Shown here one piece after another: positions 6,383 through 23,372 of a stretch of DNA of 64,000 nucleotides. The DNA comes from a virus: UHGV virus genome UHGV-1378817; one strand, 5' to 3'. The notes below the pieces were generated by a model. The model was given only the letters and a program-made list of their open reading frames with translations, ran no database searches and was not told the DNA's origin. Position 1 is the first letter of the stretch; the number at the start of each line of letters is the position of its first letter. A program made the position numbers and the translations under genes.

Positions 6383-6394
6383 TTTATCTCCTGA

Positions 6395-8467: not shown

Positions 8468-9153
8468 TAACCCTCCTGTCTAGTTGCGTTTACTGTAATA
8501 CTTTCACAATAAATGGTTGTGGTGTCCCAATCAGGTCTTACGTCAGGAACATATAGCAAAGTAGCCAGCCCACCAACTCCGAATTGGTTTTCTTCCCACA
8601 CTGATCCGAAGCCAAGAGCTGTAGAGTCCCCTTCAAAACCAAAAGCTTGCCCTTGCGATTCTGTAAGACGCAAATGACAAGGTAATGGTAGCATATCTAA
8701 GATCTGATCGATAGACTGCAATATGTCAAAGCAAGTTTTTCTAATATTTATGTCAAACCTGAAGTTGTCTCCTTTCCACGTATCGAAATTGTCTCTTCCG
8801 AACAATTGTCGCAAGGTGGAGATGACATCTTCGCGAGTCCCGCCCCTTGATGCTGCAGCCTGCTGAATAATTAGTGTGGCACGAAAATCAGCATCTGAAA
8901 GTCCATTCCTAAGAATACCAAGTTGATTACCAACTTCGTCAAGGTATCTTCCGCTGGCATTGTTAAGCAATCTTCCTTCAGCCAAACCTACCAGCATCTT
9001 ATCAACATCCTCCAACCTTTTAAGGTACACGGTTAAGAATGTGACTAAATTAACCTTCTCAGCCAGAAAATCTCCAGGCAGGTAGTCAAGACCTCCCTGA
9101 ACAAAATCTGGCAGAGTGTGGATGTGGTTAACATCCGACTTAATCTCTGCCAT
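8467..9153 (-). CDS. baseplate/tail structural protein (228 aa)
   Basis: ORF with 1-nt overlap to downstream gene (translational coupling); position between baseplate and fibre genes; no diagnostic motif. Confidence 0.45.
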   Translation of the reverse strand: MAEIKSDVNHIHTLPDFVQGGLDYLPGDFLAEKVNLVTFLTVYLKRLEDVDKMLVGLAEGRLLNNASGRYLDEVGNQLGILRNGLSDADFRATLIIQQAAASRGGTREDVISTLRQLFGRDNFDTWKGDNFRFDINIRKTCFDILQSIDQILDMLPLPCHLRLTESQGQAFGFEGDSTALGFGSVWEENQFGVGGLATLLYVPDVRPDWDTTTIYCESITVNATRQEG

Positions 9154-9164
9154 ATCTCGCCGCC

Positions 9165-10655
9165 TTAAATAGTTTGTTGGAAAGTTATATTACTTTCGTC
9201 GAGGTCAAACACCTCGGTCATGTTCGCAACAATATCGTTTGTAGTGTAAGCTTCATCAGAAGCTCCTACAGATTTAACTTGAATTACCAGTCTATTAAAT
9301 CTGCCTATTGACACAGCAGCAGATGCAGCACCGACCAATTGGATATTGTACAACGTATCTGCAACATCCAGCCCGTTAACAACCTGCAAAAGAGCCTCTA
9401 CAATGGCATCTTTTTCGGTTGTGGAAAGCGCAGCACCGGAGTAGGTAATTCTTACATCCAGGCGGTAGGTATTTGCCTTGGAGTAATAAATTCTTTCAGT
9501 TTGACCGTCAGATGTAGTGACATCGTAGAAAATATTACCATAAGTCCTGTTCGTACAGGCTATAGTTTGGTAAAGTGCTTGGCAAATGTCCTCCGTTGCA
9601 CCACCAAACACAACCACTTGGAACTTGTAAGGAGGTATACCTTTAGCATCAGTTTTATCAGTGTTGTTGGAGAACACTCTCACTTTCTCAACACCTTTCA
9701 CCTCGCTTACAGCGCTAAGGATTGCAGGACGGGTAGCCTTAGATGTTAACTGTTTTGTGCTGGAAGCTCTTAAGCGATACTCTGAGTCTTTCTCAACATC
9801 CCTGCCTTCATTGAACCTTTCTCGGTTGGTAAGCTTGATAAATCCACTGGGAGTAGGTGACATTGTTGTCACGGTTTCTGCCTCTCTTGACAGCTCACCA
9901 GCCTCGTTAGCGATAACATCCAGTGTGATAGTTCTTTCCCCTACAATCGGGGATACTCTGAAATCTACTCTACTATTAAGTCCAACTTGATCAAGATTCG
10001 AATTGTACCCTATCCACAACGTTCCTGTCAACATATCGATCTGAATCAAATCGTCGTTCAACAGGGTTGTATTATCGACAATGAATTGCTTAATCTCTCC
10101 GTAAAAGCTTGGCAAATCAGAAGAGTCCAGAGACTTATCTGTTAAAACCAGGCTTTTTGTTTTGATACTTCCATCTGTCTGGTTGGTAATTTGAAAGTTG
10201 TATTTACCAATCCTTAGGTCTGGAGCATTTATTCTGTGAGCAATAAGATTCCCTGCTACTTGCACATCGTTGCTAAGAACAAAGTTGCCACTGTCCAGCG
10301 TATAAGTTTTGGAATCATAAATCATATTGTACGGCACAGTTGTGTTGATTGTCAACTGGCAGGTACCTGATGATTTAGAACGGCCTCTTCGGTAAATACC
10401 CTGTCTTCCAAGAAGCTCATCCAGGTAAATACCTTCTGCCCCATACAGCGTCTGTGATGCGTATACAGATGCTGCCATAAGAATAAGTTGATACTCTCGC
10501 TCGTTGAAGATAGTGGTCAGCTTATCTGCAACGGAGTTACTCTGTACGTTGAAGTTTTCGCCAAAAGCACGGATCAGGCTTTGCTTAGTTTCAACGATTA
10601 GGTCATTTAGGGTTGGTATAACGAAACCAGCCTCTGTCAATCCATACTTAGCCAC
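9165..10655 (-). CDS. baseplate-associated structural protein (496 aa)
   Basis: GTG start with GGAGGA 7 nt upstream; large structural ORF directly after a terminator-promoter cassette; function by position only. Confidence 0.45.
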   Translation of the reverse strand: MAKYGLTEAGFVIPTLNDLIVETKQSLIRAFGENFNVQSNSVADKLTTIFNEREYQLILMAASVYASQTLYGAEGIYLDELLGRQGIYRRGRSKSSGTCQLTINTTVPYNMIYDSKTYTLDSGNFVLSNDVQVAGNLIAHRINAPDLRIGKYNFQITNQTDGSIKTKSLVLTDKSLDSSDLPSFYGEIKQFIVDNTTLLNDDLIQIDMLTGTLWIGYNSNLDQVGLNSRVDFRVSPIVGERTITLDVIANEAGELSREAETVTTMSPTPSGFIKLTNRERFNEGRDVEKDSEYRLRASSTKQLTSKATRPAILSAVSEVKGVEKVRVFSNNTDKTDAKGIPPYKFQVVVFGGATEDICQALYQTIACTNRTYGNIFYDVTTSDGQTERIYYSKANTYRLDVRITYSGAALSTTEKDAIVEALLQVVNGLDVADTLYNIQLVGAASAAVSIGRFNRLVIQVKSVGASDEAYTTNDIVANMTEVFDLDESNITFQQTI

Positions 10656-10688
10656 GTCACTCCTCCGGTATGAAAATCTCTACAAGGT

Positions 10689-10717
10689 ATTTTACCAAAT
10701 TTTGTAACAATAGTCAA
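10689..10717 (-). promoter_or_regulatory. candidate promoter TTGACT-17-TGG-TAAAAT
   Basis: Minus strand reads TTGACT ATTGTTACAAAATTTGG TAAAAT; -10 at plus 10689-10694, -35 at plus 10712-10717; TGn extended -10; about 30 nt upstream of the GTG start at 10655. Confidence 0.45.
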
Positions 10718-10723
10718 TCTGAG

Positions 10724-10752
10724 CATAAAAATAAACCCCGCCGAAGCGGGGC
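10724..10752 (-). terminator. intrinsic terminator (UUCG tetraloop hairpin + U tract)
   Basis: Plus CCCCGC-CGAA-GCGGGG (10736-10751); on minus transcript GCCCCGC-UUCG-GCGGGGU then UUUAUUUUUAU; immediately after stop of 10761..14600. Confidence 0.6.
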
Positions 10753-10760
10753 TTTAAAGG

Positions 10761-13700
10761 TTAGTCGTGAGACTCGTTCCAAGGTCCTTGGAAACTAGAG
10801 TTAGAACGGCTTACCACAACAGTAGGACAGGATATTGCGACCCCTGTTACAGAAGACGTTGACCATGGTGTGTAGATTTCAACAACAATATCTATGGTTT
10901 GTTCACCAAGACCCGTTATCCCTACCGCACACATGCCGTTGTTGTCGTTTCCGTACTTCTTACCTGCAAGGATTTGATGTCCGGCTATCCAAACGTTAAG
11001 CTGGGAGCTGGCAAGAGTACCATTCAGTTTAAAGAAGAATGTTACGTTCTTACCCTGACCTGAAACGTTATCTACGTATCTCCACCTCCAACGGCAAACC
11101 CTTTGCTGGGAGTTATATACTGGAGCACAATCTCCGTAAGTCCTGTGTGCAACAATTGCACCTTCGAACTGGTTAGCGCGGATAACAGAAGCTTCTACAC
11201 GACCACGGAAGGTACCTCCGGTTGCATCTATGGTGCCTCTAAAGCTACCATTATTGGCATAAACATCCCCACGGAAGGTACCACTAGTGGCGTTAACTGC
11301 TCCTGTGAAGTTACCAGAACTGGCGTTGATGTTGCCTTTCACCCACACATCCATAAATTGGGCGTGCCCGTTCTTGTTAATATACCAACCGTATTTATGG
11401 TACCCGTTGCCATCGTAGTTGTTTGACGAAATTTCTTGTGCAATCTTGGCAGAGGAGATCGTGCCATTCTCTATAAAAGCGTCTTTCAAGAACGCTTGGT
11501 TGTTCTTGATTGCGAAAGCAAGGGTTGCTGTTCCATTGCCAGGGTTGTATACCGCAAAATTGTTTGCGCTAACCATGAAGTAGGATTGAACTTGGCCTCC
11601 AGACCCTTCCATCCCCAACTGAATACCTGCAACATATTTATTCCCTGCGGAGTCTACCTGTATTTTTGTGCCCCATTGAGCATTTACTTTACCCTCTAAG
11701 TCGGTTACAGCCTTAGATGTTGTAGCTACTGCAGCCCTGATCTCAGACACATCCCCAACATCATCAATGATCTCCTGCTTAGCAACAGCAAGTTCTTGAC
11801 GAATAGCTGACGCTGTGCCGTTGATAAGGTCCACAGTGGCTTTATTGGTATCGGAAATTGTAGCATCCAGCGCTGTTTTTGTGGAGGTCAGTTTTCCATC
11901 CAAAGCATCAATCGCTTGCTTGTTGGTAGAAATCTCCCCACGTGCAGAAGTTATCTGCTCTGACAGTGCAGATGTTTTCTGATTCAACAAGTCAGTGGTG
12001 GCCTTGTTGGTATTGGCAATCAAGGTGTTGAGGTCAGTTTTTGCGGTAGTTATCTTGCCGTCAAGGGTGGTATAGTTTTTAGATACCGTCGCGTTTGTCT
12101 GACTAATCTTTTGATCCAGAGTTTCAGATGTCCTGTTCAAAAGATCCACAGTGGCCTGGTTAGTGCTCAAGATGCTTGCGTCAAGTTCTGTTCTCTGAGT
12201 ATTGATCTTACCATCCAGAGTTTTATCTCCGGCTAAATACCCGCTCTCAACTCCCTCTATCTGCTCTACCAGCTCACCTTTGGCGGCAACCAATTTCTCA
12301 TCTAAAGCCTCTGTCTTTTTGTTCAGAAGATCAGTAGTTGCTTTATTGGTTGTCTCGATTAGAGATGCCAGTCTGCCACTTTCAGTGTTCAGATCGTTGG
12401 TGAATTTGTTCTGTGCAGCAACAAGTTTCCTATCCAGCGCTGTGATATTGCCATTGACATCCTCAAACTTCTGAGTTGTCTCTGTAACTACCGCACCTAT
12501 TCTGTCTCCAAGTTGCTGGAATGCCTCATCTACCCTACCATCCATGTACCTGTTAAGTTCTGTGACACGATTTTCAACCTCTTCAATAGAGGAATCCAAA
12601 GTGCTCATCAACTCTTTATAAGTTTCTGTCTTTTTGAATTCAGCATCTATCTGAGGCATCAAATCCTCAATAGAGGTGTAGCAGCGTGCAGCGCATTCTA
12701 CAAACTGAGAACTACCAAAAGCGTTTGTGGTTCGAATATACCAATAATAAACCTTATCGTTCTGCAGACCTGAAGATGTCCAAGTTGAACCAACACCCAT
12801 ACGGGTGGCGTTCGAAGTAACGGTTGCATCACTGGTGTCGGGCAACCTTGTCATACCAGATGTCCAAAAGTCATACTGGGTGCTAACACTTGCTAAATCC
12901 CTACTATGCGGAATCAAGGTGATAGCAAAGTATCCTTGCTTAACCTCTACAGAAACCGGAGCTTCAGGTGCCTGAATGTTAAACTCACAATACGCTTCTG
13001 GAGATACACCACCTTTATAAGATGTTGCAACCACGGTTGCTGTGTATGACCCTTTTGTCAAACCTTCTACTCTGACAAACTGCTCAACTGTCTGTGCTGT
13101 CCAAACAATCTCTCCGTTCTTTCTTACCTGCACAATATTTTGAGCGTAAGTCCCAACGTTGTCCCAGGCCAAAACACCGTGAGTTACTTCCCCAGCTTGG
13201 AGAACGGAGTATCTGAAGTTTTGCGGCTGAGCTACACCGGACGGGGATATCGGAATATCTACATCGCCGGAATCCGGAAGTTGCCCTGTGGCATCATTCC
13301 ACTCTTTAGCATCTTGACGAAGTTTTACCTTGACACCGCCCTTTTTGGTGAACTCCCATTCAAGAACCCTCATTTCTTGGCCCACTATACCAATACTTGG
13401 GAGATTCATTGTAACGTAACGGCCAGGCTTAAATTTAAAACCTCGCATATTGCAGGTGACTTCAATAATCCTGCCAGCTCTAGCGCGTCTTAAGAAGATT
13501 GCAGAAACACGCTGAGCTTGATAAGGGCTGGTAACAAAGCGATAGTCTATATCGATTATCTTTCTTTCTCCATCCTTCTCTATCCACTCTGGGACAAACA
13601 CTGATGGAAAATCTGTTTCAGAATACCCTTTGGTCGGACTAGTGAATCTGCCAGTTATTGTGTTGGATCTTTTGTCAAATGAGGCTTCAGGATAGATCTT

Positions 13701-14600
13701 AACCTCACCACAGACACAGTCCTCACTCAGTGTCATTGTTGCAGGGCCATAGTATGCACCAACCAGCAAACCATACTTACCAGCAACATAACTAAGATCT
13801 GCACCGCAAGCTTTCAGCATTTCTGCCATAATACTTGCTGGGGCCTCATCCATATCGAACTCACCATTAATGGTGTAACGGCGCTCACTGGTTCCGTCCG
13901 CGTTTCTTACCGCCTCATCGCATATGTTAGCAGCCTCCTTGAAGGACTCCCAGTTGATGGTTTCGTCAGGACATTTAAGGTACGTTCTTAAATAGTCTAG
14001 AATCACCAAGGCCGCGTTATTGGTATACACCTCTTTACTGATACGGGGATCATAGCATTTTTTACCAACCTTGACGAGTGTAACGTTTGGCAACCCAAAA
14101 GGGAACTTGTTAGGGTCAAACCTGAAGCTGGCACGTAGCCAACTGATCCCTCTACCTATCATGTCTGGTGACCACGATGGACAGTGTGTACCCATGAAAG
14201 GATCAGCTGTTTTTCTGTCGTTATGTAGCTCCCACGATACCAAATCCCCATACGAGGAAATAGGATTACCGTCGATGAGTATATCTTCTATACCTTCCAG
14301 AGGGTGATTGGCAAGAACAATAGCACAGTGGAGAGTTCTGTCTCTATCCTGCTCCAAAAACGCAAGCAATCCGGATGTGCGTGTCTTCCCATACACTACA
14401 GAGCAAGGTGCAGCAGAAGATCTGAGAAGCTTTTGTCTATCTTGCTGACTTCTGTAAGATTTGTTGCCCTCAAAAATCTTATCCAAAGTTCTGGTGGTCA
14501 CAGTGTTCAGGCTGTCAGCCAGAGCTGCCTTGGATGCGTTCCAGTCATAACTTGAAGATCTTGCAGAAGCAACGATGTTATCAATCATTGCAATTGGCAT
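10761..14600 (-). CDS. large tail tip / host-specificity-like fibre protein (1279 aa)
   Basis: 1279-aa ORF; N-terminal globular part, central coiled-coil repeats, C-terminal Gly-rich repeats (SGNFTGAVNATSGTFRGDVYANNGSFRGTIDATGGTFRG). Confidence 0.55.
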   Translation of the reverse strand: MPIAMIDNIVASARSSSYDWNASKAALADSLNTVTTRTLDKIFEGNKSYRSQQDRQKLLRSSAAPCSVVYGKTRTSGLLAFLEQDRDRTLHCAIVLANHPLEGIEDILIDGNPISSYGDLVSWELHNDRKTADPFMGTHCPSWSPDMIGRGISWLRASFRFDPNKFPFGLPNVTLVKVGKKCYDPRISKEVYTNNAALVILDYLRTYLKCPDETINWESFKEAANICDEAVRNADGTSERRYTINGEFDMDEAPASIMAEMLKACGADLSYVAGKYGLLVGAYYGPATMTLSEDCVCGEVKIYPEASFDKRSNTITGRFTSPTKGYSETDFPSVFVPEWIEKDGERKIIDIDYRFVTSPYQAQRVSAIFLRRARAGRIIEVTCNMRGFKFKPGRYVTMNLPSIGIVGQEMRVLEWEFTKKGGVKVKLRQDAKEWNDATGQLPDSGDVDIPISPSGVAQPQNFRYSVLQAGEVTHGVLAWDNVGTYAQNIVQVRKNGEIVWTAQTVEQFVRVEGLTKGSYTATVVATSYKGGVSPEAYCEFNIQAPEAPVSVEVKQGYFAITLIPHSRDLASVSTQYDFWTSGMTRLPDTSDATVTSNATRMGVGSTWTSSGLQNDKVYYWYIRTTNAFGSSQFVECAARCYTSIEDLMPQIDAEFKKTETYKELMSTLDSSIEEVENRVTELNRYMDGRVDEAFQQLGDRIGAVVTETTQKFEDVNGNITALDRKLVAAQNKFTNDLNTESGRLASLIETTNKATTDLLNKKTEALDEKLVAAKGELVEQIEGVESGYLAGDKTLDGKINTQRTELDASILSTNQATVDLLNRTSETLDQKISQTNATVSKNYTTLDGKITTAKTDLNTLIANTNKATTDLLNQKTSALSEQITSARGEISTNKQAIDALDGKLTSTKTALDATISDTNKATVDLINGTASAIRQELAVAKQEIIDDVGDVSEIRAAVATTSKAVTDLEGKVNAQWGTKIQVDSAGNKYVAGIQLGMEGSGGQVQSYFMVSANNFAVYNPGNGTATLAFAIKNNQAFLKDAFIENGTISSAKIAQEISSNNYDGNGYHKYGWYINKNGHAQFMDVWVKGNINASSGNFTGAVNATSGTFRGDVYANNGSFRGTIDATGGTFRGRVEASVIRANQFEGAIVAHRTYGDCAPVYNSQQRVCRWRWRYVDNVSGQGKNVTFFFKLNGTLASSQLNVWIAGHQILAGKKYGNDNNGMCAVGITGLGEQTIDIVVEIYTPWSTSSVTGVAISCPTVVVSRSNSSFQGPWNESHD
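11760..12520 (-). repeat. in-frame tandem coiled-coil repeats inside 10761..14600
   Basis: Roughly 50-aa units repeat about 3-4 times (..TNKATTDLLNxKTxALxExI....LDGKxTxxKTxL..); coordinates approximate, placed from the protein sequence. Confidence 0.4.
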
Positions 14601-15037
14601 TAATACCTCCAGACATCAACAACGATAGAATCTTTCATGTCGAACATAAAGACCCCTTTATCACCTTTAGCCAAAATCTGGTTGTTCCAGAACACACCAG
14701 CGGTGAGCCCGTTCAGACCTTCGAAAATGACAATATCTCCACGCTGAACCTGTTTAGGAGTATCCAGCCGAGTCATAAAGAGATCAAAAATAGTAGGCAG
14801 GTGTGTGGTCTTGAAGCGAAGCATGCACCATCTTTTGCTTTCCAACTCTGTTTTATACGTTCCTTCAAAGCTAGAAAGAAAATCTGTTCCGTATTGGGCA
14901 TCAACACACTTAGCTGCAAATGTGCAACAATCGTGGAATCCCCATTCAAAAGGTATGGTGGCCTCTTCGTCAAACACTTTCCACAATCTTTCTTGCCAAT
15001 CCACTAAACGAGGGTGTGTGCTCATTAAACCTCCCAA
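14600..15037 (-). CDS. minor tail protein (145 aa)
   Basis: ORF overlapping neighbours by 1 and 13 nt (coupled); one of three small genes just upstream of the large tip protein. Confidence 0.4.
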   Translation of the reverse strand: MGGLMSTHPRLVDWQERLWKVFDEEATIPFEWGFHDCCTFAAKCVDAQYGTDFLSSFEGTYKTELESKRWCMLRFKTTHLPTIFDLFMTRLDTPKQVQRGDIVIFEGLNGLTAGVFWNNQILAKGDKGVFMFDMKDSIVVDVWRY

Positions 15038-15591
15038 ATGATCGGGCGGCTCGCCACCTGATCCACATATTTAAAAAATCTGTCGTTATCGTTTCTTGAG
15101 CTGTGGCTTTCCTCCGTGTACCGATAAGGAAAACCTCTTAACCAGCTGTTGAAGATGGAAGAGATGGATATGGACAAAGCACTATTCTCCCCTGTCTGAA
15201 TAGCCATATCTGTTATAAGGCCGTCAAACAAGCCATTAGTTGTAACAGGTAGACCATTCTCCATGGCGGTAATGTACAACGTGGCACGACAACCAGAATA
15301 CTCCGTCTTCAGCAGATCACCTACATACTTAGGATCAAACCCGTTCAATGTTGCTACCACAGATCCGAAGTTGGTGGCATCTTTCTCAGACACAGCGGTC
15401 AATGTTGCTGATCCACCTATCCCTATAAAATGTTGCCCCTCAATTACTACAACACCAGTGCCTGAGCACACCCTGACAGTTCCTGTCGGTAGCTCCAGCT
15501 TTGCAGCAATTAAGATCTCAACACCATCAAGCTCCAGCTTTTCAAGAAATAAATTATCTAATGGCGCTCTGATCATCTTAGAAATCCTCAA
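15025..15591 (-). CDS. minor tail protein (188 aa)
   Basis: ORF in coupled array upstream of the tip protein; no diagnostic motif. Confidence 0.4.
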   Translation of the reverse strand: MRISKMIRAPLDNLFLEKLELDGVEILIAAKLELPTGTVRVCSGTGVVVIEGQHFIGIGGSATLTAVSEKDATNFGSVVATLNGFDPKYVGDLLKTEYSGCRATLYITAMENGLPVTTNGLFDGLITDMAIQTGENSALSISISSIFNSWLRGFPYRYTEESHSSRNDNDRFFKYVDQVASRPIIWEV

Positions 15592-16168
15592 AGAAGTTGA
15601 TAACTATATTATCACCTTTTTGCATAGCATCGACTTTTTGCTTAATTTTATAAATATCTCTGATATGAAACCTACCCTTCGGGGATTGAGTTATTATCTT
15701 CATAGTGTCCCCTGCTGCAATAGGTTTTCTAAGTCTTGGAGATATGCTTATAACAGCAGACCCAACACCATCGCTACGCACTGGAGCTGTTACCACTTTC
15801 AATTCATCATTGACAGATATTTTATCCCCAGCTCTGGCTATGTCTCTGTTTGGCTCCCATCCGACCGTCTTCAAAAAATCGTCGTTACCAGTAGGCCCAA
15901 GGGCGATTGGCTCATTAGCTGTTACTGAGTGACCGTAAGTTTTAATGAGAAAAATGTTCCCATCTTTATACACCTGATCAACAAAGCTCTTAAGCTCTAG
16001 CAACTGTGACTCGCTGATATTGGAGACCGTCAAAGTGCCTTTCCAGTTAGGTGTGGCATAGGTTACTTTTTGCGTCTTACCTGTAAACGGACTTTTAAAC
16101 GTAACAATATCTGCCAGCAGCTCCAATCTGATATCTGGAAGGTATCTAGGCCTTTCCCATAAAAACAT
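15578..16168 (-). CDS. minor tail protein (196 aa)
   Basis: ATG with CCTCC-complement SD (GGAGG) upstream; first gene after a terminator-promoter cassette. Confidence 0.4.
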   Translation of the reverse strand: MFLWERPRYLPDIRLELLADIVTFKSPFTGKTQKVTYATPNWKGTLTVSNISESQLLELKSFVDQVYKDGNIFLIKTYGHSVTANEPIALGPTGNDDFLKTVGWEPNRDIARAGDKISVNDELKVVTAPVRSDGVGSAVISISPRLRKPIAAGDTMKIITQSPKGRFHIRDIYKIKQKVDAMQKGDNIVINFFEDF

Positions 16169-16230: not shown

Positions 16231-16260
16231 CAAACAAAAAGCCCCCGCCGAAGCGAGGGC
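16231..16260 (-). terminator. intrinsic terminator (UUCG loop)
   Basis: Plus GCCCCCGC-CGAA-GCGAGGGC (one mismatch); minus transcript hairpin followed by UUUUUGUUUG; directly after stop of 16268..20068. Confidence 0.5.
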
Positions 16261-16267
16261 AAAACAG

Positions 16268-19200
16268 TTACTTCAATTTCTCTTGCAATCCAGTAACAAC
16301 CTCTGTCAATTTTTTAACCTGCTCCTCAAGGGCGGTTATTTTATCGTCCTGTTCCCTGCAAACCTGGACAAGCAAGCCTGTTACAGCTGCGTAGTCAACG
16401 TTATAGAACCTTTCCTCAGTCATTAAAGGAATGCCGTCTTGAGTAGGACCTTCTATTTCCTTCCTTTTCACGAAAGATCCTACTGCCTCTGGCAATGCTT
16501 CCATAACCTCTTGAGCAATCACGCCTGCATAAGGCATACCATTCTCTTTCAAGGTGTAGGTATAGCCTTTCATCTTTCTAATTGCTTCCAGAGCGTTAGG
16601 TATGACCTCTATGTTATCCTTCAGGTCCCTATCGGAACTTTGGCTAACAGTAGTACATTCTACCGTGCCGTTGACAGCAAAATATCTTGATTTAGCCTCA
16701 TCTGCCTTAGCGCCACAGTGGAATACCCAGCTGGCGACTGTTGAGTTATCACTTATCTGAAACTCCAGCACATTCTTCCTATCTGCGCCATTACCCCAAT
16801 AGTACAACCTGCCTGTATTAGAAGGCATGTTGGAAGTGTTGGTAACATCCGTCCCACCACCTGTGTGTATTGTGAACTCCGGCTCAAGATTGGATCCTTG
16901 AGTTTTTAAAGTGATACCTTTACCACCAAGCTGCTGCCAATGGCCCCATGTGAAAACACCACCTATCGTTGTTCCGTAACGCAGGAATTTTTCTCCAAGA
17001 TATGTCGTATATTCCTGTACGCAACTCTCTGGAACGTTGGCATAGTTTCTGTAGACAACTAGAGTACCTGCCTGGGAGCATGGGTAGTTTTTATCAAGTG
17101 CGGCTTGAGCATTAGCCTCTTGATGATAAAAACCCTCTCTATCCCCTTTGTAGTCATTAAGGTCATTAGTCCCCAGCCCTTGACCACGGTGCTGAATAAC
17201 CTTGTTCCATGCCCTATGGTTACCACCCTCGATAGACCTGGTGTATAACTGATCAAGGCGACCAGCCATTTGGAAGGCATAGTTTCCAGAAAACGCCACA
17301 GACAGTCCGCCAACAACCATCGAACCTTCAGGTCCGTTGACGTTGCCAGCCATTATTTTGGACGGATTATTATTCCCGAACTGGTTGTTCCAGTCTGCAC
17401 CTGTGTGGCATACAAAACCACCCGGTGCTGAGAAAGTACCATCTTTGTTGAAATTGTAAAATCTGTGAGCAGAACCTACAATATCGCGAACAATAACTTG
17501 ACCAGCCTCTGGAGTAGATCTGAACTCTGCCTGACCTTTGAGACCAGCACCATTACCGCATTTAGAGGTAAACGTACCGTTAGTCAGATCCTCTGTCCCA
17601 TCGGATGCGCACTGGAATCCTGCATTAGAGAATAACGCCTTTCTAGGACTGCCGTAGCACAAATAGTCAAGACCGTCTGCCCATAGCTCGACTTTTGGCA
17701 TATTCATTTTGCTCATCACAGCATAGCGTTCAGCAGTGCCTATATAGTGCCACTGTGTGCCGCCGCCAGTGTAGAACCCTGAAGTACCTTTGAAGTCAAC
17801 AATAGGTCTGGTATTGGTGTTGTTATCTCCAAGAATAGCAAGATTCAAATCTGCTGACTGAAGAGGTGCAACGAACTTAACCCCATCCTGATTGTCTGTT
17901 ACAGCCCCGACCTGGTAATCTTGCTCTCTGGTAAACACTTCGACAACATTTCTACTTGCGTATATGCTGACAGGGAAAGCACGAGCTTCTACATAGAAAG
18001 CAACATACTCTTGTTTACCCCTTGTTGGAGCAACCATCCCAAGAAGTGCTTTTTCATTCTGGTAGAAATTTACTACCCCGTAGAAAGAGTCTCCTCTGTC
18101 TGTCCAGCCACCAGTTCTATAGTGACACTGCAGAGTGGCACAGTTCATAGGATCATTTCCAGATGAAGACCTGGTGACTATAGTAATATCTGTACCTGTC
18201 GAAGGGGCGTAATACGGATCTGTTCTAACGATGATTGGGTAGTATTTCCCATCTTCCATCCCTGCGGTTCTTGGCAGTGTTAAGAAGTCTTTTACACCTG
18301 CTGCTATAGGAACTTTGAACAGATTCTGAGCATCTGCTAAAGTTGTAGCCCCGGTGCCACCTGCGGCTTGAGGTAGAGGTTCCCACTTGGCCTTCCGGTT
18401 GTTATAAACACCCCATTCCAGAGTGCCGTTACCGGATTCGTCCATCCCGCCATCCCAGACAACCATCTTGGCGGCTTTCTTGGACCCCCAGAAGCCTCTT
18501 TCTGCCCCTGAACTACGGATCCACTCTCCAAGTCCCCAGTTTGTCAGCTGACCAGTAAGATCCCCAACCTGCATATATTTAGGACAGTCTAATACACCGT
18601 CTTCGCGGAAACCTAAATATCTATGAGTTTCAGATCCTTTTGCACCTTTGTGCAGGTGGATTGTCAACCAAGCCTTATTGTCGTTTCTTACCTCAGAGTA
18701 GATCCTATATCCATGCTCAAGGACACCGTCAGCGCTGTATTTGTCCCCGTTAACAATACCTGATGCTGACTTAACATCAGCAGAGCTTTGAGACAGGTAA
18801 AGGTGCCCGAAGGTAGGGGTATTTCTAGGCCCAAGACCGATGTGCGATCTAAAGGTATCATCGTTACGAGGTCTGACCATCGGCTGCCATGCAGTCCACT
18901 GGTTTGTGTTGGCCTGATAGGTTCTCAAATACCAAACATCTACGTTAGAGAATGGATAGTATTCCTGACGACAACCTGTACCGCCGTTAGCATTGTTCTG
19001 CCAAACAATCAAGTGACCAGCACCAGAACCTGCAGGGTAACCATTTGCCTCAGTTGCATTAGCAGTCATCGGCTGGTAGTACACACCATCCTGATTACCA
19101 GTCAAGTTATTGATATTGAAATTTGCCTCAAGGGCTGCACGTTGCTTATAGAAAGCCCCTAAGTTAATGCGTGCACCTGCGGCATCTCTGGCACCTGTAC

Positions 19201-20068
19201 CGCCTTGCTCTATAGCAAGAGGTTGCCACGAGGCTGTTTGTTGGTTCCACATACCCCAACGACCTGTTGCGTCAAGCTGCAAGTACCCTGCCGTGTTTAA
19301 ATCATCTCCAGCACGAATAACTGTTCTTGTTGGGTTATTTGCCTCTAGGCGTTTAAATTCATCACGAAGTGCTATTCTTTTTGTTGTTGCTACACCGTTG
19401 GTTACTGCAATGGTATACATTGCTCCGGAGGTAGCGCCACGGAAAATACCATCAACAGTTGTAGTATCACGACGAGATACCACACCGTTCAGAAATTTTT
19501 CACCAGCTGCTACAGAAGGGTAGTTGGTAGTTCTTCCCTCTTCAATAACTGCAGCGCCAACAAAGTTATCAAGGTGAATAACATCGCCTACAGTATGCAC
19601 TGTACCAAAATCTACACGCTGTGCAAGGGCTTTAGCATCGTTAGCTGTCTGAACAGTAACATCCATTACATCCTGCACAGACTGCCCTTCAGCTGTCATG
19701 ATCATAGATGCGCCAATGGTGGATTCCAGCTCCTCCCTTAGGGACGGGTCAGTATATACCATCCATGCAGCGTCAGTAATCCCACCATCGGAGTACGGTG
19801 AAGATAGTGCAGGAACAGTGTGTGGAAATTCGCCTTTCCAACGCAGGTAGAGGTCTTCCTCTTCGAAGTAGGCAAAATCCATTGGGCCGTTTAACTTACC
19901 ACCTTCCTTAAAGGAGATTACATGAGAAACAGTCCCATCCACATGGACAACATCGCCAATTTTTACACGACGAGTCAGGTCTGGTTGTTGAACAACCAGG
20001 TAATCATCCTCTGTCACTGCGGTAGTGGCAGGAAGAGATTCAATTCTGACAACTTTAATATCAGCCAT
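16268..20068 (-). CDS. long tail fibre with C-terminal intramolecular chaperone (S74-type autoproteolytic) domain
   Basis: 1266 aa; C-terminus has SDRDLKDNIEVI..GYTY..AQEV motif and a terminal coiled coil, matching the self-cleaving chaperone domain of endosialidase/L-shaped fibres; N-terminus has LVV..TRR.KIGDVV anchor-like motif. Confidence 0.65.
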   Translation of the reverse strand: MADIKVVRIESLPATTAVTEDDYLVVQQPDLTRRVKIGDVVHVDGTVSHVISFKEGGKLNGPMDFAYFEEEDLYLRWKGEFPHTVPALSSPYSDGGITDAAWMVYTDPSLREELESTIGASMIMTAEGQSVQDVMDVTVQTANDAKALAQRVDFGTVHTVGDVIHLDNFVGAAVIEEGRTTNYPSVAAGEKFLNGVVSRRDTTTVDGIFRGATSGAMYTIAVTNGVATTKRIALRDEFKRLEANNPTRTVIRAGDDLNTAGYLQLDATGRWGMWNQQTASWQPLAIEQGGTGARDAAGARINLGAFYKQRAALEANFNINNLTGNQDGVYYQPMTANATEANGYPAGSGAGHLIVWQNNANGGTGCRQEYYPFSNVDVWYLRTYQANTNQWTAWQPMVRPRNDDTFRSHIGLGPRNTPTFGHLYLSQSSADVKSASGIVNGDKYSADGVLEHGYRIYSEVRNDNKAWLTIHLHKGAKGSETHRYLGFREDGVLDCPKYMQVGDLTGQLTNWGLGEWIRSSGAERGFWGSKKAAKMVVWDGGMDESGNGTLEWGVYNNRKAKWEPLPQAAGGTGATTLADAQNLFKVPIAAGVKDFLTLPRTAGMEDGKYYPIIVRTDPYYAPSTGTDITIVTRSSSGNDPMNCATLQCHYRTGGWTDRGDSFYGVVNFYQNEKALLGMVAPTRGKQEYVAFYVEARAFPVSIYASRNVVEVFTREQDYQVGAVTDNQDGVKFVAPLQSADLNLAILGDNNTNTRPIVDFKGTSGFYTGGGTQWHYIGTAERYAVMSKMNMPKVELWADGLDYLCYGSPRKALFSNAGFQCASDGTEDLTNGTFTSKCGNGAGLKGQAEFRSTPEAGQVIVRDIVGSAHRFYNFNKDGTFSAPGGFVCHTGADWNNQFGNNNPSKIMAGNVNGPEGSMVVGGLSVAFSGNYAFQMAGRLDQLYTRSIEGGNHRAWNKVIQHRGQGLGTNDLNDYKGDREGFYHQEANAQAALDKNYPCSQAGTLVVYRNYANVPESCVQEYTTYLGEKFLRYGTTIGGVFTWGHWQQLGGKGITLKTQGSNLEPEFTIHTGGGTDVTNTSNMPSNTGRLYYWGNGADRKNVLEFQISDNSTVASWVFHCGAKADEAKSRYFAVNGTVECTTVSQSSDRDLKDNIEVIPNALEAIRKMKGYTYTLKENGMPYAGVIAQEVMEALPEAVGSFVKRKEIEGPTQDGIPLMTEERFYNVDYAAVTGLLVQVCREQDDKITALEEQVKKLTEVVTGLQEKLK

Positions 20069-20104
20069 TCTTTCTCCTGAAAGGGGGCAAACAGCCCCCC
20101 TATG

Positions 20105-22702
20105 TTAAAGGTACAATCCACGGTATTGAGCATAAAGGCCCAGACCGCGAAGGATTTCGCCAGAGTGATAGCCAACCGGATCAGAAACTGCCCAGCAGCC
20201 GTTTAAAATATTATCCCCATTAATGAAGTGGTGCTTTTGCAGTAGCTTCACACAGGCTTCCACAACAATATCTATTTGAGGTATTGTCTCTGAATACCCG
20301 CACAGACCTAGCCAGCAGCAACCTGCAAGCCATTCACCTACCACCCACATCCTGTCTCCTCTGTCCTGATAAGAATATCCCCCAGAGGTGTTAAAGTCTG
20401 TAGGCAGATTTCCTGAATGAGATGACTGGAATCTGTTGAGGAACCATGCCCATTTCTGGCAGAACAGGAATAGTCTTTCATCAACAGGTTCTTTATGTTT
20501 CTTGAGCTCATATATTGTGCGGCACGCAGCAACAAAAGATCTTGACTGGAGCTTAGAGTTATCTACCATCTCCCACCAACCAGTCAACCCTTCATTACCT
20601 CTTTGCCATACATAACGTGAGGCAACTGGACCCTCTGTCTTAAATGTATTATTATACCAGACTTGAGCGTCATACAGAAAGCCTATTGTATTTGACAATC
20701 TATGGCGATCTATGTTTTCTGCACCCATGCAGTAGACTGCTGGGTATTGCATACCAGGGTAGGGCCAATTTGGCCTTTCCTCTAAGAGATAGTTTTCCTT
20801 ATCTATCACCTTTCCGGCAGGGAACACACCCGGTGTGTGCCTGTATGCACCTTGCTTGTAGTTTCTGACATAGCAATCGCCAACCTTAGCGGTTGATTCT
20901 GTCTTGCTTGCCATCCATACGCTAAACCAGATTAGATAAGCATCCCTATCTGCAATATAAAATTGCGGCAGTGTGTTGACGCAATACAGATCAAACAAGC
21001 CATTACCTATCTGCCTGTCGCTTAGACTGAAATCTACAGAGGTTAGCCCCTTAGGATTAGCAAAGAAAGGTTTAATCTCTTCTTCGGTGTGATGAGGTTG
21101 TGTCGGATCTAGTTTGAAATCTCCTAGGGTAAGAGTTTCTGTTATCCATTGTCCATTGGTGGCATATAGATCAGCATACCATAACCACCTGTCTTTGTCA
21201 AGAAATTTGACCCTTACCATCTCATCATCTGATCGATAAGTTACTGAGTTTAAAGAAATCTCTCTTCCAAAATTGAAAGTTACTTTGCCTCTTGCTATAT
21301 TACAACGGGTGAAGTTGTCAGAGTGGTTGTAAATGTCGGTATCATACTGCATACTGACACTAGCACCACCGCTTACGGCAATGTTTTCCTCTTTAGGTAA
21401 GAGATACGGATTACCGTCTTTACCAACTACCTCTACGAAATCGGTAACCTTGGCAACTATTTCTGTTACCTCTGCCCCTCCAAAAGGAACCCCTATCCTG
21501 TACTGTTTTTTGTTATTGTTGCCATCATTAAGGATGAAATGTGGCTGGAATAGAACCCCTTCTCCTCCGAAATTCATAACAATTTCAGCATCTCTGCCTA
21601 TTTTGTATGTAGTCCCTTTTTGAATTATTTCGCAAGGCTGGCGTGCGTTCATTCTAAAATTGATATACCCGTCACTGTCCCTGCTCATGACAGGAACTGT
21701 TCCTGCAACAAGACAAGTACCATCTGTGAACGGTGCCTTAATCAGCGTGGTCTTTCTAAACAGCTTGTCGTAGGCGTTTATATCACTGAAATTAAGCAAC
21801 TTGTTGTAAGACTGTTTAAACGCGGTGTAATACTTTTCCTCACCTGTCAAGGTGTAGAGTTGATAACAAGCGTCACACCACATTTCTTCCCCGTCCAACT
21901 CTGGGGCCTGATTATCTGCAACCACGTTTATAGGATTTACAATTACAGGGGATCCTGCAGGTATCACCGATCCACCCTGCTCTTGAGGTAATCTTACACA
22001 ATAGGTCACCTTGTGGCTGCCTGTAACACCCTTATCTTGTAGTTGGATTGTGCCGAACTCTACAGACGTATGACCACTGTCGGCTATGCTACCGTTAGCC
22101 CAATAGCGGTTACCATCCCATGCTATATACCACTCAACCCACCAACTTAATCCGGATGTTGTCCAATCTGGGTTAGCATCTGTGCCACCGTAAACATCAG
22201 AGTCTACAGTGTTTCTTCCTAACACACCGTTATATGCTTGAAATGCCTTGTCTAGGTATTCCCCCCATGTCGGAGATCCAGCTGGGATTTTTCCTCTACC
22301 ATTGGTAAAAGACACCACCACATCTTTAAACCCACCATGTGATGGAACCCCATCTGTGGATAGAGGGTAGTGGGACAATCTTTGCATTTTACTTTCTACT
22401 GCATATGCACCCAGAAGATGGCTATTGTAAGCTTCCCAAGCATCTTTTGCCCTATCCAAGTAGAAATCGCTTTTCGATGCCCTGTATGCTTCAATGTACC
22501 CCAGAATCAACACAGCTTGGGACTCGTGCATTGCCCAATCATTATTTATCTTATTACCTGCCCACCCTGCAGCTATAAGACCATCAGGGTTTACTAGCTT
22601 ATTTTGTGTAGGGGTGTTGGTAATACCTGTGTTGTTATCGAGGCACTTCCTGTGCCCCTCAATCATCTGAAATACGTTATCAATGTTATGTTGAATACGC
22701 AT
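20105..22702 (-). CDS. large tail-associated protein (865 aa), possible enzymatic spike
   Basis: 865-aa ORF between fibre genes; Trp/Tyr-rich globular sequence without fibre-like repeats; function not assignable by eye. Confidence 0.4.
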   Translation of the reverse strand: MRIQHNIDNVFQMIEGHRKCLDNNTGITNTPTQNKLVNPDGLIAAGWAGNKINNDWAMHESQAVLILGYIEAYRASKSDFYLDRAKDAWEAYNSHLLGAYAVESKMQRLSHYPLSTDGVPSHGGFKDVVVSFTNGRGKIPAGSPTWGEYLDKAFQAYNGVLGRNTVDSDVYGGTDANPDWTTSGLSWWVEWYIAWDGNRYWANGSIADSGHTSVEFGTIQLQDKGVTGSHKVTYCVRLPQEQGGSVIPAGSPVIVNPINVVADNQAPELDGEEMWCDACYQLYTLTGEEKYYTAFKQSYNKLLNFSDINAYDKLFRKTTLIKAPFTDGTCLVAGTVPVMSRDSDGYINFRMNARQPCEIIQKGTTYKIGRDAEIVMNFGGEGVLFQPHFILNDGNNNKKQYRIGVPFGGAEVTEIVAKVTDFVEVVGKDGNPYLLPKEENIAVSGGASVSMQYDTDIYNHSDNFTRCNIARGKVTFNFGREISLNSVTYRSDDEMVRVKFLDKDRWLWYADLYATNGQWITETLTLGDFKLDPTQPHHTEEEIKPFFANPKGLTSVDFSLSDRQIGNGLFDLYCVNTLPQFYIADRDAYLIWFSVWMASKTESTAKVGDCYVRNYKQGAYRHTPGVFPAGKVIDKENYLLEERPNWPYPGMQYPAVYCMGAENIDRHRLSNTIGFLYDAQVWYNNTFKTEGPVASRYVWQRGNEGLTGWWEMVDNSKLQSRSFVAACRTIYELKKHKEPVDERLFLFCQKWAWFLNRFQSSHSGNLPTDFNTSGGYSYQDRGDRMWVVGEWLAGCCWLGLCGYSETIPQIDIVVEACVKLLQKHHFINGDNILNGCWAVSDPVGYHSGEILRGLGLYAQYRGLYL

Positions 22703-22703
22703 C

Positions 22704-23372
22704 TTAGATAGCTCCTGCGATAATCAGTGCCCCGTACCAAGTTAACCCGTTGTCGTAGGTTTCCAACTTGAAAATATCTGTTGCACCAGCTGTAAATGTT
22801 AGGATAGGATCTCTTCCGTAGGACCATTTAACATTACCAGGCCAATAGACTTTGTTGCCGCCAGAGGTCTGAGTAATGCATACGGTTATAGTTCTCGCCA
22901 CCCCTTCAAGACCTTCTGTTTGATTTTCAAAAGAGATTGTGGTATTTGAAGTTAGTCGAACCTTAAAGGTATCCGCAACTTCAAGATCCATATCAAGCTG
23001 ACCACCGATAGATCCGTAATCAACTATTCTGCCAGAAGAAGTTGCAGCAAGCTCACCAAAAACAGACCAGGCATTTGCAGACACGCCCCCAGCACCCTCT
23101 ACAGTGGAGTCTGGTAGGATTATTTTAGGATAATCCCCGTTCCACGTGTAGTAGCGCTTAGTCTCTGGGTCATAAGCAAAGTCCTTCTTGCTCTTAAGAT
23201 AACCACCCTCTGTGAAATAGACTATCTTAGTAATACTAAGATCGTTGACAACATCGTCAATCTTAGCCTTTCTTGTCCCATCAGTCTGGTTGACAACCAA
23301 GAAGTCATCACTCAGGACTGTTTCTGCATCTTCAAGATCTGGAATTGGTATTGTAGGATAAGCTACAGCCAT
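22704..23372 (-). CDS. short tail fibre-like protein (222 aa)
   Basis: N-terminus PIPDLEDAETVLSDDFLVVNQTDGTRKAKIDDVV parallels the N-terminus of 16268..20068 (ESLPATTAVTEDDYLVVQQPDLTRRVKIGDVV). Confidence 0.45.
   Translation of the reverse strand: MAVAYPTIPIPDLEDAETVLSDDFLVVNQTDGTRKAKIDDVVNDLSITKIVYFTEGGYLKSKKDFAYDPETKRYYTWNGDYPKIILPDSTVEGAGGVSANAWSVFGELAATSSGRIVDYGSIGGQLDMDLEVADTFKVRLTSNTTISFENQTEGLEGVARTITVCITQTSGGNKVYWPGNVKWSYGRDPILTFTAGATDIFKLETYDNGLTWYGALIIAGAI

What the first reader, a model, noticed from the sequence alone, without database searches (positions are those of the whole stretch)
16268..23372. Shared N-terminal anchor motif on two different fibre proteins and a self-cleaving C-terminal chaperone domain
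16268..20068 and 22704..23372 begin with a similar segment (..D.LVV.Q.D.TRR.KI.DVV..), suggesting a common docking domain for alternative distal proteins on the same baseplate site. The long fibre ends with an SDRDLKDNI-containing module resembling intramolecular chaperone domains that are autoproteolytically removed after trimerisation (coding roughly 16268..16720).
Basis: partly seen in the sequence, partly recalled or inferred. Interest (0 to 1): 0.45.

Follow-up and report, generated by a model that had tools for sequence, protein, structure and literature searches.

The report
Shared tail-fibre plug and self-cleaving chaperone
Two tail proteins of an rV5-like E. coli phage share a roughly 45-residue N-terminal attachment plug, and the long fibre ends in a well-known self-cleaving folding chaperone; this is ordinary modular phage-fibre biology, already largely described in close relatives.

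Summary
The window is an rV5-like Vequintavirus (97% nt identity). The three genes are orthologues of rV5 gp43 (222 aa), gp42 (865 aa) and gp41 (1266 aa).

Both observations hold.
- **N-termini:** they align at 38% identity over 99 residues (E 3e-18). No other ORF in the window shares the segment.
- **C-terminus:** gp41 ends in a Peptidase_S74 intramolecular chaperone (aa 1145-1266). Its Ser1145/Lys1150 dyad matches T5 pb1 and the phi92 endosialidase.
- **Orthologue evidence:** a published cryo-EM map of the MaxBurger orthologue shows no density for this domain.

The interpretation needs correcting.
- The shared unit is a lineage-specific plug of about 45 aa, followed here by a Tail_spike_N domain.
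- The plug occurs typically twice per genome in about 312 Vequintavirinae/phi92-type phages, on varied cargo (fibre, colanidase, endosialidase).
- gp41 and gp43 are both virion components. Two sockets are therefore more likely than alternative occupancy of one site.
- gp43 is not a distal fibre. Its C-terminal XD1/gp9-like domain always travels with a gp42-like gene, so it is probably the adaptor for gp42.
- gp41 is a chimera: the plug fused to a lateral-fibre body like those of T5-like (Demerecviridae) phages, with a hypervariable tip.

The docking partner remains unidentified. The finding is largely known and of low to moderate interest.

The parts
22704..23372 (-). rV5 gp43 orthologue (222 aa): plug + Tail_spike_N + XD1/gp9-like C-terminal domain. 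Proposed adaptor for gp42.
   Evidence: ORF. PHROG 7760 across the full length. AF2 model built with an 88-sequence alignment has mean pLDDT 81 and three domains. rV5 gp43 was detected in virions.
23238..23372 (-). gp43 N-terminal plug (aa 1-45), the lineage-specific anchor motif.
   Evidence: Aligns with gp41 aa 6-42, z = 11 versus shuffles. Conserved in SSE121 gp037/gp039, PD114 and phi92 gp140/gp143, and two KP12 proteins. Model shows strand, short helix, hairpin 24-37 and helix 38-44, pLDDT ~72-76.
23052..23237 (-). gp43 Tail_spike_N domain (aa ~46-107).
22707..23036 (-). gp43 C-terminal beta-sandwich domain (aa ~113-222), XD1/T4 gp9-like fold with an Asp-box-like hairpin. Always paired with a gp42-like gene.
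20105..22702 (-). rV5 gp42 orthologue (865 aa), a plug-less virion 'tail protein'. Proposed cargo of gp43.
   Evidence: ORF. PHROG 2871. No Pfam, NCBIfam or PDB sequence hit. 35% identical over the full length to SSE121 gp038 and phi92-type gp141. Its start codon lies 1 nt after the gp43 stop.
16268..20068 (-). rV5 gp41 orthologue (1266 aa): plug + Tail_spike_N + lateral-tail-fibre body + variable tip + S74 chaperone.
   Evidence: ORF. PHROG 6578. 99% identical to the rV5_ev147 tail fibre. rV5 gp41 was detected in virions.
19934..20068 (-). gp41 N-terminal plug (aa 1-45).
   Evidence: The first 136 aa are >=99% identical in 112 phage records.
19754..19933 (-). gp41 Tail_spike_N domain (aa 46-105).
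   Evidence: PF18668, 41 bits. PDB sequence hits to CBA120 TSP1/TSP4, G7C gp63.1 and others over aa ~50-140.
16637..19567 (-). gp41 fibre body (aa 168-1144), homologous to lateral tail fibres of T5-like and other siphoviruses. Includes two GGTGA collar motifs at aa 289 and 570.
   Evidence: tblastn gives 34-37% identity over aa 168-1261 to T5-like (106-121 kb) phage fibres, and matches Queuovirinae and lambdoid side-fibre genes. Collar motifs. Natural variants are deleted between the collars.
16697..17071 (-). Hypervariable distal tip (aa ~1000-1124), the probable receptor-binding region.
   Evidence: The EmilHeitz orthologue is 95-100% identical up to aa ~1000 and unrelated beyond. The MaxBurger tip is ~55% identical while its chaperone is ~92% identical. 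blastn to 81 Vequintavirus records stops at window ~16697.
16271..16636 (-). Intramolecular chaperone / Peptidase_S74 module (aa 1145-1266, 13.7 kDa). Catalytic Ser1145 codon 16634..16636, Lys1150 codon 16619..16621. Predicted cleavage Ser1144|Ser1145.
   Evidence: PF13884, 55.5 bits. Positions. Invariant S, D, K and IAQ.V in alignment with phi92 gp143, S16 gp37 and MaxBurger. T5 pb1 precedent: Thr1263|Ser1264 with Lys1269.
16241..16260 (-). Intrinsic-terminator-like hairpin 8 nt after the gp41 stop.
   Evidence: 8-bp stem with 7 GC pairs, followed by TTTTTGTTTG.

Best explanation
The region encodes two baseplate appendages of an rV5-like myovirus. Both attach through the same kind of N-terminal plug.

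1. The plug. It is a segment of about 45 residues specific to the Vequintavirinae / phi92 group, followed here by a Tail_spike_N head domain. By analogy with CBA120 TSP1/TSP3 and G7C gp63.1, such heads are trimeric and dock onto a trimeric platform of another tail protein.
2. The long fibre. gp41 carries the plug on a long lateral fibre whose body is shared with fibres of T5-like and other siphoviruses. The fibre folds as a trimer with the help of its C-terminal S74 intramolecular chaperone. Ser1145, activated by Lys1150, then cuts the chain between Ser1144 and Ser1145. This releases a 13.7-kDa chaperone and exposes the variable receptor-binding tip.
3. The stub. gp43 carries the plug on a short protein that ends in an XD1/gp9-like domain. 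This stub most likely holds the plug-less gp42 protein on the virion.
4. Occupancy. Both appendages are present together, so they probably occupy two sockets rather than compete for one.

Shown here: the homologies, the domain boundaries, the catalytic residues, the modular distribution and the gene linkage. Inferred: docking, cleavage in this phage, the gp43-gp42 contact and the number of sockets.
For: Identity of the locus.

Plug:
- Shared N-terminus, significant and unique in the window.
- Tail_spike_N in both proteins.
- The gp43 model matches the G7C gp63.1 and CBA120 TSP heads. Those heads bind XD3-type platforms (PMC8825819).
- The plug heads different cargos. SSE121: a small protein and a colanidase. 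phi92 and PD114: gp140 and endosialidase gp143, neither with Tail_spike_N. KP12: 521-aa and 996-aa proteins. Metagenomic relatives: beta-helix spikes..
- The plug consensus finds 574 places in 312 phage records, all 130-160 kb myoviruses.
- Conservation is at protein level. The DNA is 55.5% identical and the longest exact run is 10 nt.

Fibre and chaperone:
- N-terminal 136 aa >=99% identical in 112 records, against only 13 records for the C-terminal 220 aa.
- Fibre body homologous to T5-like fibres.
- S74 module and dyad.
- T5 pb1 mechanism.
- The phi92 gp143 record annotates cleavage before SDGTLK.
- The MaxBurger orthologue has the same SSDRDLKDNI. Its cryo-EM map lacks the peptidase domain (PMC12143355).

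Occupancy and adaptor:
- gp41, gp42 and gp43 are all in rV5 virions.
- The gp43 C-domain and gp42 have matching distributions (534 vs 525 records, same genus counts) and conserved adjacency in myo-, sipho- and podoviruses.
- In the siphovirus KLB28 the adaptor N-terminus is the lambda Stf attachment domain PF08400 instead of the plug.
Against: - No docking partner was identified. No Kuttervirus-type XD2/XD3 sequence is detectable in the window.
- Published phi92 and Vequintavirus maps do not resolve these N-termini.
- The plug region of the gp43 model has only moderate confidence (pLDDT ~72-76) and was modelled as a monomer.
- The cleavage evidence comes from orthologues, not this phage. Absent cryo-EM density could also reflect disorder.
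- The gp43-gp42 contact rests only on gene linkage and co-occurrence.
- Klebsiella relatives such as KP12 have plug-bearing proteins with no gp42 homologue in the corresponding slot. gp42 is therefore not needed for plug docking. This also leaves open that gp42 attaches some other way.
Confidence: 0.68

Rival explanations
1. One socket with alternative occupancy. gp41 and gp43 compete for the same baseplate site, so each of the six positions, or each virion, carries one or the other. This would give mixed particles.
For: The two plugs are clearly homologous. In Klebsiella relatives the first plug-bearing gene is replaced by a different 521-aa protein, which shows that a socket tolerates different cargo.
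Against: Both proteins are detected in virions. Both genes are retained typically in pairs across ~312 genomes in several genera. The plugs have diverged to 38-46% identity within each genome while each is >=99% conserved between genomes, as expected for two distinct partners. The phi92 map shows three fibre types, each in six copies.
Confidence: 0.12
2. The shared N-terminus is mainly a trimerisation or assembly element, or a recognition tag for an assembly factor, rather than the contact with the baseplate. Attachment would be made by other parts or other proteins.
For: The TSP1 head needs Zn2+ and its N-terminal helix to trimerise (PMC8825819). The plug is short, and no partner was found.
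Against: The plug is the only segment common to cargos as different as an endosialidase, a colanidase, a long fibre and a 157-aa stub. These proteins have their own trimerisation devices (beta-helices, the S74 chaperone). The plug's distribution follows the virion lineage and not the cargo. That is the signature of a virion-attachment module.
Confidence: 0.1
3. gp43 is itself a small receptor-binding protein. Its XD1-like domain binds a glycan, as in CpaA and StcE, and gp42 attaches independently. The conserved gene pair would then reflect joint function on one substrate, not physical contact.
For: The XD1 fold serves as a glycan-binding module in CpaA and StcE. The domain is usually C-terminal, also on long fibres, and sometimes occurs in several copies.
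Against: gp42 homologues have no recognisable attachment module of their own. They are always preceded by a small gene ending in this domain, with 0-4 nt spacing or overlap. The N-terminus of that small gene changes with the virion type: plug, lambda Stf N-domain, or others.
Confidence: 0.2

Closest known systems
Phage phi92 gp140 and gp143 (endosialidase 92 precursor), with gp141
   Same: Same gene order after the sheath initiator: small plug protein, gp42/gp141-like protein, then a plug-bearing cargo ending in an S74 chaperone. The plug is present on exactly gp140 and gp143. gp141 is 35% identical to gp42 (via PD114). gp143 is annotated as cleaved before SDGTLK.
   Different: The phi92 proteins lack the Tail_spike_N domain. 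The cargo is an endosialidase rather than a long fibre. An extra gene (gp142) is inserted. gp140 is 157 aa: plug fused directly to the C-domain.
[quoted passage not shown]
   Same: Long lateral fibre ending in a receptor-binding tip plus an S74 chaperone with a Ser/Lys(+5) dyad. gp41 residues 168-1261 are 34-37% identical to fibres of T5-like phages. The mechanism is established for pb1: S1264A blocks cleavage, and only the processed form competes for the receptor.
   Different: The N-terminal attachment part is replaced by the Vequintavirinae plug and Tail_spike_N. T5 pb1 itself was not hit by sequence in the PDB search. The receptor of gp41 is unknown.
CBA120 TSP1-4 and G7C gp63.1/gp66 branched tailspike complexes
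   Same: Tail_spike_N head domains at the N-terminus. The gp43 model matches the gp63.1, TSP3 and TSP1 heads. Several receptor-binding proteins are mounted together through N-terminal heads. The gp43 C-domain has the XD1 fold of TSP4-N.
   Different: No XD2/XD3 platform is detectable. The first 45 residues are not recognisably shared with Kuttervirus TSP1. The cargos are a fibre and an adaptor, not four beta-helix spikes.
K1F endosialidase C-terminal intramolecular chaperone domain (Peptidase S74) and MYRF ICA domain
   Same: Pfam S74 match with the SD...K dyad. MYRF and S16 gp37 were hit in the PDB. rV5 gp41 was already linked to PDB 3GW6 by HHpred in 2013.
   Different: It sits on a fibre rather than on an endosialidase. 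Sequence identity is low.
Klebsiella podophage KP32-type 'conserved docking peptide / branching domain' systems
   Same: A short conserved N-terminal peptide on a secondary receptor-binding protein serves as the docking element, and cargos are exchangeable (abstract of PMC13352976).
   Different: Different phage family and no sequence relation tested. In those systems the partner is a known T4 gp10-like branching domain.

Membership tests
Peptidase_S74 / intramolecular chaperone auto-processing domain (PF13884) | Sequence match to the family model above the curated threshold | tested here: met
   55.5 bits against a cut-off of 22, E 7e-15, residues 1145-1196.
Peptidase_S74 / intramolecular chaperone auto-processing domain (PF13884) | Catalytic Ser with Lys five residues downstream at the start of the domain | tested here: met
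   Ser1145 and Lys1150 in SDRDLK. Both are invariant in the alignment with phi92 gp143, S16 gp37, MaxBurger and a metagenomic relative. Spacing is the same as T5 Ser1264/Lys1269.
Peptidase_S74 / intramolecular chaperone auto-processing domain (PF13884) | Located at the extreme C-terminus of a trimeric fibre or spike, followed by a helical coiled-coil region | tested here: inconclusive
   The C-terminal position is met (aa 1145-1266 of 1266). A coiled coil was reported for rV5 gp41 by PCOILS (PMC3606486) but was not computed here. The trimeric state was not tested.
Peptidase_S74 / intramolecular chaperone auto-processing domain (PF13884) | Autoproteolytic release after trimer folding | not testable with these tools
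   Indirect only. The cryo-EM map of the MaxBurger orthologue lacks the peptidase domain (PMC12143355; orthology checked). The phi92 gp143 record annotates a mature peptide.
Tail_spike_N head domain (PF18668; CBA120 TSP1 / G7C type) | Sequence match above the curated threshold in both proteins | tested here: met
   41 bits against a cut-off of 25 for each: residues 46-103 of gp41 and 51-105 of gp43.
Tail_spike_N head domain (PF18668; CBA120 TSP1 / G7C type) | Fold similarity to solved TSP or gp63.1 heads | tested here: met
Branched receptor-binding complex of the CBA120 / G7C kind | A scaffold protein with T4 gp10-like XD2/XD3 platforms that the heads bind | tested here: not met
   phmmer with a Kuttervirus TSP2 XD2-XD3 region found nothing in any window ORF (best E 0.87). 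Only an XD1-like fold was seen, in the gp43 C-domain. Divergent platforms could have been missed.
Branched receptor-binding complex of the CBA120 / G7C kind | Physical head-to-platform binding | not testable with these tools
   No complex prediction or experiment was available.
T5 pb1-like lateral (L-shaped) tail fibre | Homology along the fibre body and tip to fibres of T5-like phages | tested here: met
   34-37% identity over gp41 residues 168-1261 to fibres of 106-121 kb T5-like phages. 57-59% identity over the last ~170 residues.
T5 pb1-like lateral (L-shaped) tail fibre | Binding of O-antigen or another surface glycan as a non-essential primary receptor | not testable with these tools
   No receptor data for this allele.

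The most novel reading that the evidence does not exclude
The plug marks a twin-socket attachment system common to all rV5 / phi92-type myoviruses. gp43 (phi92 gp140) is a universal adaptor whose XD1-like domain carries the plug-less gp42 (phi92 gp141). The gp140-gp141 pair would then be a candidate for the still unidentified 'fibre II' of phi92, which the 2026 cryo-EM study places at the base of fibre I (gp143) but could not assign to any gene. More generally, [attachment module + C-domain] followed by a gp42-like gene would be a mobile two-gene appendage cassette. It would plug into myo-, sipho- and podovirus tails simply by changing the adaptor N-terminus.
Probability: 0.3. Interest if true: 0.45.

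Novelty: already known. Interest (0 to 1): 0.22.

Why it matters

- Knowing that a 45-residue plug defines which proteins mount at two baseplate positions gives a practical handle for host-range engineering. The part after residue ~165 of gp41, or the cargo behind the plug, could be swapped while the plug is kept.
- The predicted cleavage site (Ser1144|Ser1145) tells engineers which part must be retained for folding and which part is absent from the mature fibre.
- The gp43-gp42 linkage offers a testable assignment for an unassigned fibre density in phi92.

None of this changes general understanding of phage fibres.

Tried and rejected
- A single-sequence AlphaFold model of gp43 was useless (pLDDT 35). 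It was redone with an 88-sequence alignment.
- The word-indexed homology search with gp43 gave only 4 close relatives.
- The same search with a profile of the 45-aa plug returned only short fragments of 43-91 aa. It could not be used to survey cargo architectures, so tblastn against phage genomes was used instead.
- PDB sequence searches found nothing for gp42, the gp43 C-domain as a single sequence, or the C-domain as a 57-sequence profile. Pfam and NCBIfam also found nothing for these.
- The 'sialidase domain protein' annotation of gp43 in BASEL records was rejected. Only weak BNR/Asp-box hits (best E 0.05) and 26-residue Foldseek matches to sialidase hairpins were seen.
- I tested whether the plug equals the N-terminus (D1) of Kuttervirus TSP1. 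The similarity lies in the Tail_spike_N part, and the first 45 residues align only weakly.
- The search for XD2/XD3 platforms in the window was negative.
- gp42 as an obligatory scaffold for plug docking was rejected, because KP12 has two plug proteins with an unrelated middle gene.
- DNA-level repeat or recombination between the two N-termini was rejected (55.5% identity, longest run 10 nt).
- The 2012 phi92 paper (PMC3457257) and the RBPseg supplements are not held.
- The phiTE (Certrevirus) baseplate structure was read for fibre attachment, but its fibres use a different N-terminal helical bundle.

Full report
**What the window is.** The 7.1-kb region is 97% identical at DNA level to rV5-type Vequintavirus phages; 116 phage records cover at least 80% of it. 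In the annotated BASEL phage WalterGehring the same genes follow the tape measure, tube initiator, hub, spike and sheath-initiator genes. All are on the minus strand. By length, position and the rV5 paper's description:
- 22704..23372 is the orthologue of rV5 gp43 (222 aa).
- 20105..22702 is the orthologue of gp42 (865 aa).
- 16268..20068 is the orthologue of gp41 (1266 aa here, 1272 in rV5).

The gp42 start codon lies one base after the gp43 stop. A strong terminator-like hairpin follows gp41 at 16241..16260.

**Checking the observation.** The two N-termini align at 38% identity over 99 residues, E 3e-18.
- Searching each N-terminus against all 444 ORFs of the window finds only the other.
Each is significant on its own: z = 11 and 17.6, with 0 of 2000 shuffles reaching the observed score.
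- Pfam places PF18668 Tail_spike_N on residues ~46-105 of both proteins.
- Pfam places PF13884 Peptidase_S74 on gp41 residues 1145-1196.
- SDRDLKDNI begins at Ser1145, and the module runs to the C-terminus, window 16271..16636.

**The chaperone module.**
- Ser1145 and Lys1150 have the Ser/Lys(+5) spacing of T5 pb1. There, S1264A blocks autoproteolysis, the Thr1263|Ser1264 bond is cut, and only the processed tip competes for the receptor (PMC4690869).
- In an alignment with phi92 endosialidase gp143, S16 gp37, the MaxBurger orthologue and a metagenomic relative, the Ser, Asp, Lys and a downstream IAQ.V motif are invariant.
- The GenBank record of phi92 annotates the mature endosialidase as ending immediately before the SDGTLK serine.
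- PDB sequence hits are S16 gp37 and the MYRF self-cleaving domain.
- The RBPseg study reports cryo-EM maps of two Vequintavirus phages (PMC12143355). The MaxBurger fibre carries a C-terminal peptidase S74 domain but shows no density for it. The EmilHeitz fibre ends in a lectin-like head instead.
- I verified that these are the gp41 orthologues. MaxBurger has the same SSDRDLKDNI, about 92% identity in the chaperone and about 55% in the tip. EmilHeitz is 95-100% identical up to residue ~1000 and then unrelated, with a Laminin_G_3 hit and no S74.
- The rV5 paper of 2013 had already linked the gp41 C-terminus to the K1F endosialidase chaperone.

By inference, the mature fibre here ends at Ser1144 (124.9 kDa) and a 13.7-kDa chaperone is released. 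This part of the finding is correct and already known.

**What the shared N-terminus is.** Comparison with related genera separates two parts. The first ~45 residues have the consensus h.I..LP.a..v..dDyLVVdQ.D.TrK. They are present on exactly two proteins in each genome examined:

| Phage | First plug protein | Second plug protein |
|---|---|---|
| Seunavirus SSE121 | gp037 | gp039, a colanidase |
| phi92 and PD114 | gp140 | gp143, the endosialidase |
| Klebsiella phage KP12 | 521-aa protein | 996-aa protein |

- phi92 gp141, gp142, gp150 and gp151 lack the plug.
- The phi92 proteins have no Tail_spike_N domain. gp140 goes straight from the plug into its C-domain, and gp143 goes into the endosialidase N-extension. 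The 45-residue plug is therefore the common unit, and Tail_spike_N is an accessory.
- A tblastn with the plug consensus finds 574 places in 312 phage records. All are 130-160 kb myoviruses of this group, with annotations ranging from lateral tail fibre to colanic-acid degradation to tail spike.
- Metagenomic relatives carry the plug in front of beta-helix spikes and other bodies.
- Within Vequintavirus the first 136 residues of gp41 are at least 99% identical in 112 records. The last 220 residues reach that level in only 13 records.
- The two plugs in the window are only 55.5% identical at DNA level, with no exact run longer than 10 nt. The similarity is therefore maintained at protein level.

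This is the classical signature of a virion-attachment module with exchangeable cargo.

**gp41 is a chimera.** Residues 168-1261 are 34-37% identical to the lateral fibres of T5-like phages. Shorter stretches match fibres of Queuovirinae, Dhillonvirus and lambdoid phages. Only residues 1-134 match the Seunavirus colanidases. Natural variants of 617, 827 and 988 aa keep the N-terminal ~330 residues. One is deleted exactly between the two GGTGA collar motifs at residues 289 and 570. This fits the permutable domain order that RBPseg describes for this fibre class.

**gp43 is not a distal fibre.**
- An AlphaFold model made with 88 homologues (mean pLDDT 81) has three parts: the plug (strand, short helix, hairpin 24-37, helix 38-44), the Tail_spike_N domain, and a C-terminal beta-sandwich (residues 116-221, pLDDT ~90).
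- 3413 cluster representatives match gp43 at E<=1e-3, and most of the 150 listed match this C-terminal domain. It is usually C-terminal there and sometimes repeated. It has no Pfam or PDB sequence match.
- The 'sialidase' label in some annotations rests only on an Asp-box-like hairpin.

**Linkage of the gp43 C-domain with gp42.** The phage records that hold this domain (534) and those that hold a gp42 homologue (525) have almost the same genus counts:

| Genus word | gp43 C-domain | gp42 homologue |
|---|---|---|
| Escherichia | 240 | 243 |
| Salmonella | 102 | 101 |
| Vibrio | 60 | 62 |
| Erwinia | 33 | 33 |
| Campylobacter | 23 | 23 |
| Cronobacter | 12 | 12 |
| Aeromonas | 7 | 7 |
| Klebsiella | 6 | 6 |

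In every lineage inspected, the gp42 homologue is directly preceded by a small gene that ends in this domain. The lineages are Vequintavirus, Seunavirus, phi92-like phages, the jumbo phages 121Q and an SPN3US relative, the 7-11-like podovirus GAP52, and the lambda-like siphovirus KLB28.

The N-terminus of the small protein changes with the virion type. In KLB28 it is the lambda side-fibre attachment domain PF08400. I infer that gp43 is the adaptor that mounts the plug-less gp42 on the tail. This rests on linkage, not on a demonstrated contact.

**One site or two?** gp41, gp42 and gp43 were all found in rV5 virions by mass spectrometry. The plug genes are kept typically in pairs. The phi92 map shows three fibre types, each in six copies. 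Fibre I, assigned to gp143, sits on the wedge protein gp145. An unassigned fibre II is attached at the base of fibre I. Two sockets, possibly adjacent, are therefore more likely than alternative occupancy of one site.

The partner itself could not be identified:
- No XD2/XD3-type platform is detectable in the window.
- gp42 cannot be an obligatory scaffold, since KP12 lacks it in the slot between its two plug genes.
- The related phiTE structure uses a different fibre N-terminus.

**Comparison and verdict.** The region works like the modular receptor-binding proteins of CBA120, G7C, T5 and phi92.
- Membership in the S74 and Tail_spike_N families is met by sequence. For gp43 it is also met by predicted fold.
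- Membership in a CBA120-type branched complex is not established, because the defining XD2/XD3 platform was not found.
- Both features of the finding belong to known families in a well-sequenced phage genus, and the chaperone was noted in 2013.

The cassette offers a testable candidate for phi92 fibre II. Interest is low to moderate.

Noticed in passing
window 10761..16168 (minus strand): A siphovirus-style tail-tip block sits inside this myovirus baseplate locus. It has four genes: a 196-aa 'distal tail protein' (PHROG 1302), a 188-aa tail protein, a 145-aa DUF6950 protein, and a 1279-aa lambda J-like protein (Ig_J, Ig_J_second, Phage_Tail_Tip). It lies between gp41 and the wedge genes in Vequintavirus. 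It is absent at that place in Seunavirus SSE121 and in phi92-like phages.
   Followed up: partly
window 20105..23036, and loci L009-L012: The gp43 C-terminal domain and gp42 form a conserved adjacent gene pair in very different phages: jumbo myoviruses, a 7-11-like podovirus, a lambda-like siphovirus and Rosemountvirus. The small protein's N-terminus changes with the virion type. This suggests a mobile adaptor-plus-cargo cassette.
   Followed up: yes
window 16268..20068; proteins P0122, P0124, P0142: Public data hold shortened natural variants of gp41 (617, 827 and 988 aa) with the same first ~330 residues. In the 988-aa form the junction falls exactly at the two GGTGA collar motifs (gp41 residues 289 and 570). 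This points to deletion by recombination between the collars.
   Followed up: partly
window ~20083..20100 (minus strand), between gp42 and gp41: A GC-rich hairpin (GGGGGGC TGTTT GCCCCC, then TTT) lies in the 36-nt spacer just upstream of the gp41 ribosome-binding site. The terminator scan did not call it because the T run is short. It could be an attenuator or an RNA-stability element.
   Followed up: no
search results for the whole region: About 18-23 GenBank records named 'Campylobacter phage' with host C. jejuni (MG0656xx series) are near-identical to E. coli rV5-like phages across this locus. The host label looks doubtful.
   Followed up: no
locus L006 (EmilHeitz) 6001..10769: An alternative gp41 allele of 1478 aa replaces the tip and S74 chaperone with a lectin-like (Laminin_G_3) head. 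It is followed by an extra 110-aa ORF of unknown function that is absent from the window.
   Followed up: partly
window 6395..8467 (minus strand): A 690-aa fibre protein combines a Calx-beta domain with the N-domain and TIM barrel of the N4 non-contractile tail sheath protein (PF23844, PF23845). This matches the ECA/NGR-binding deacetylase fibre discussed for Vequintavirinae and N4.
   Followed up: no
window 22704..23372: BASEL records annotate this protein as 'sialidase domain protein'. The only basis found is an Asp-box-like hairpin (TYDNGLTWYG). There is no sialidase fold or family match.
   Followed up: yes
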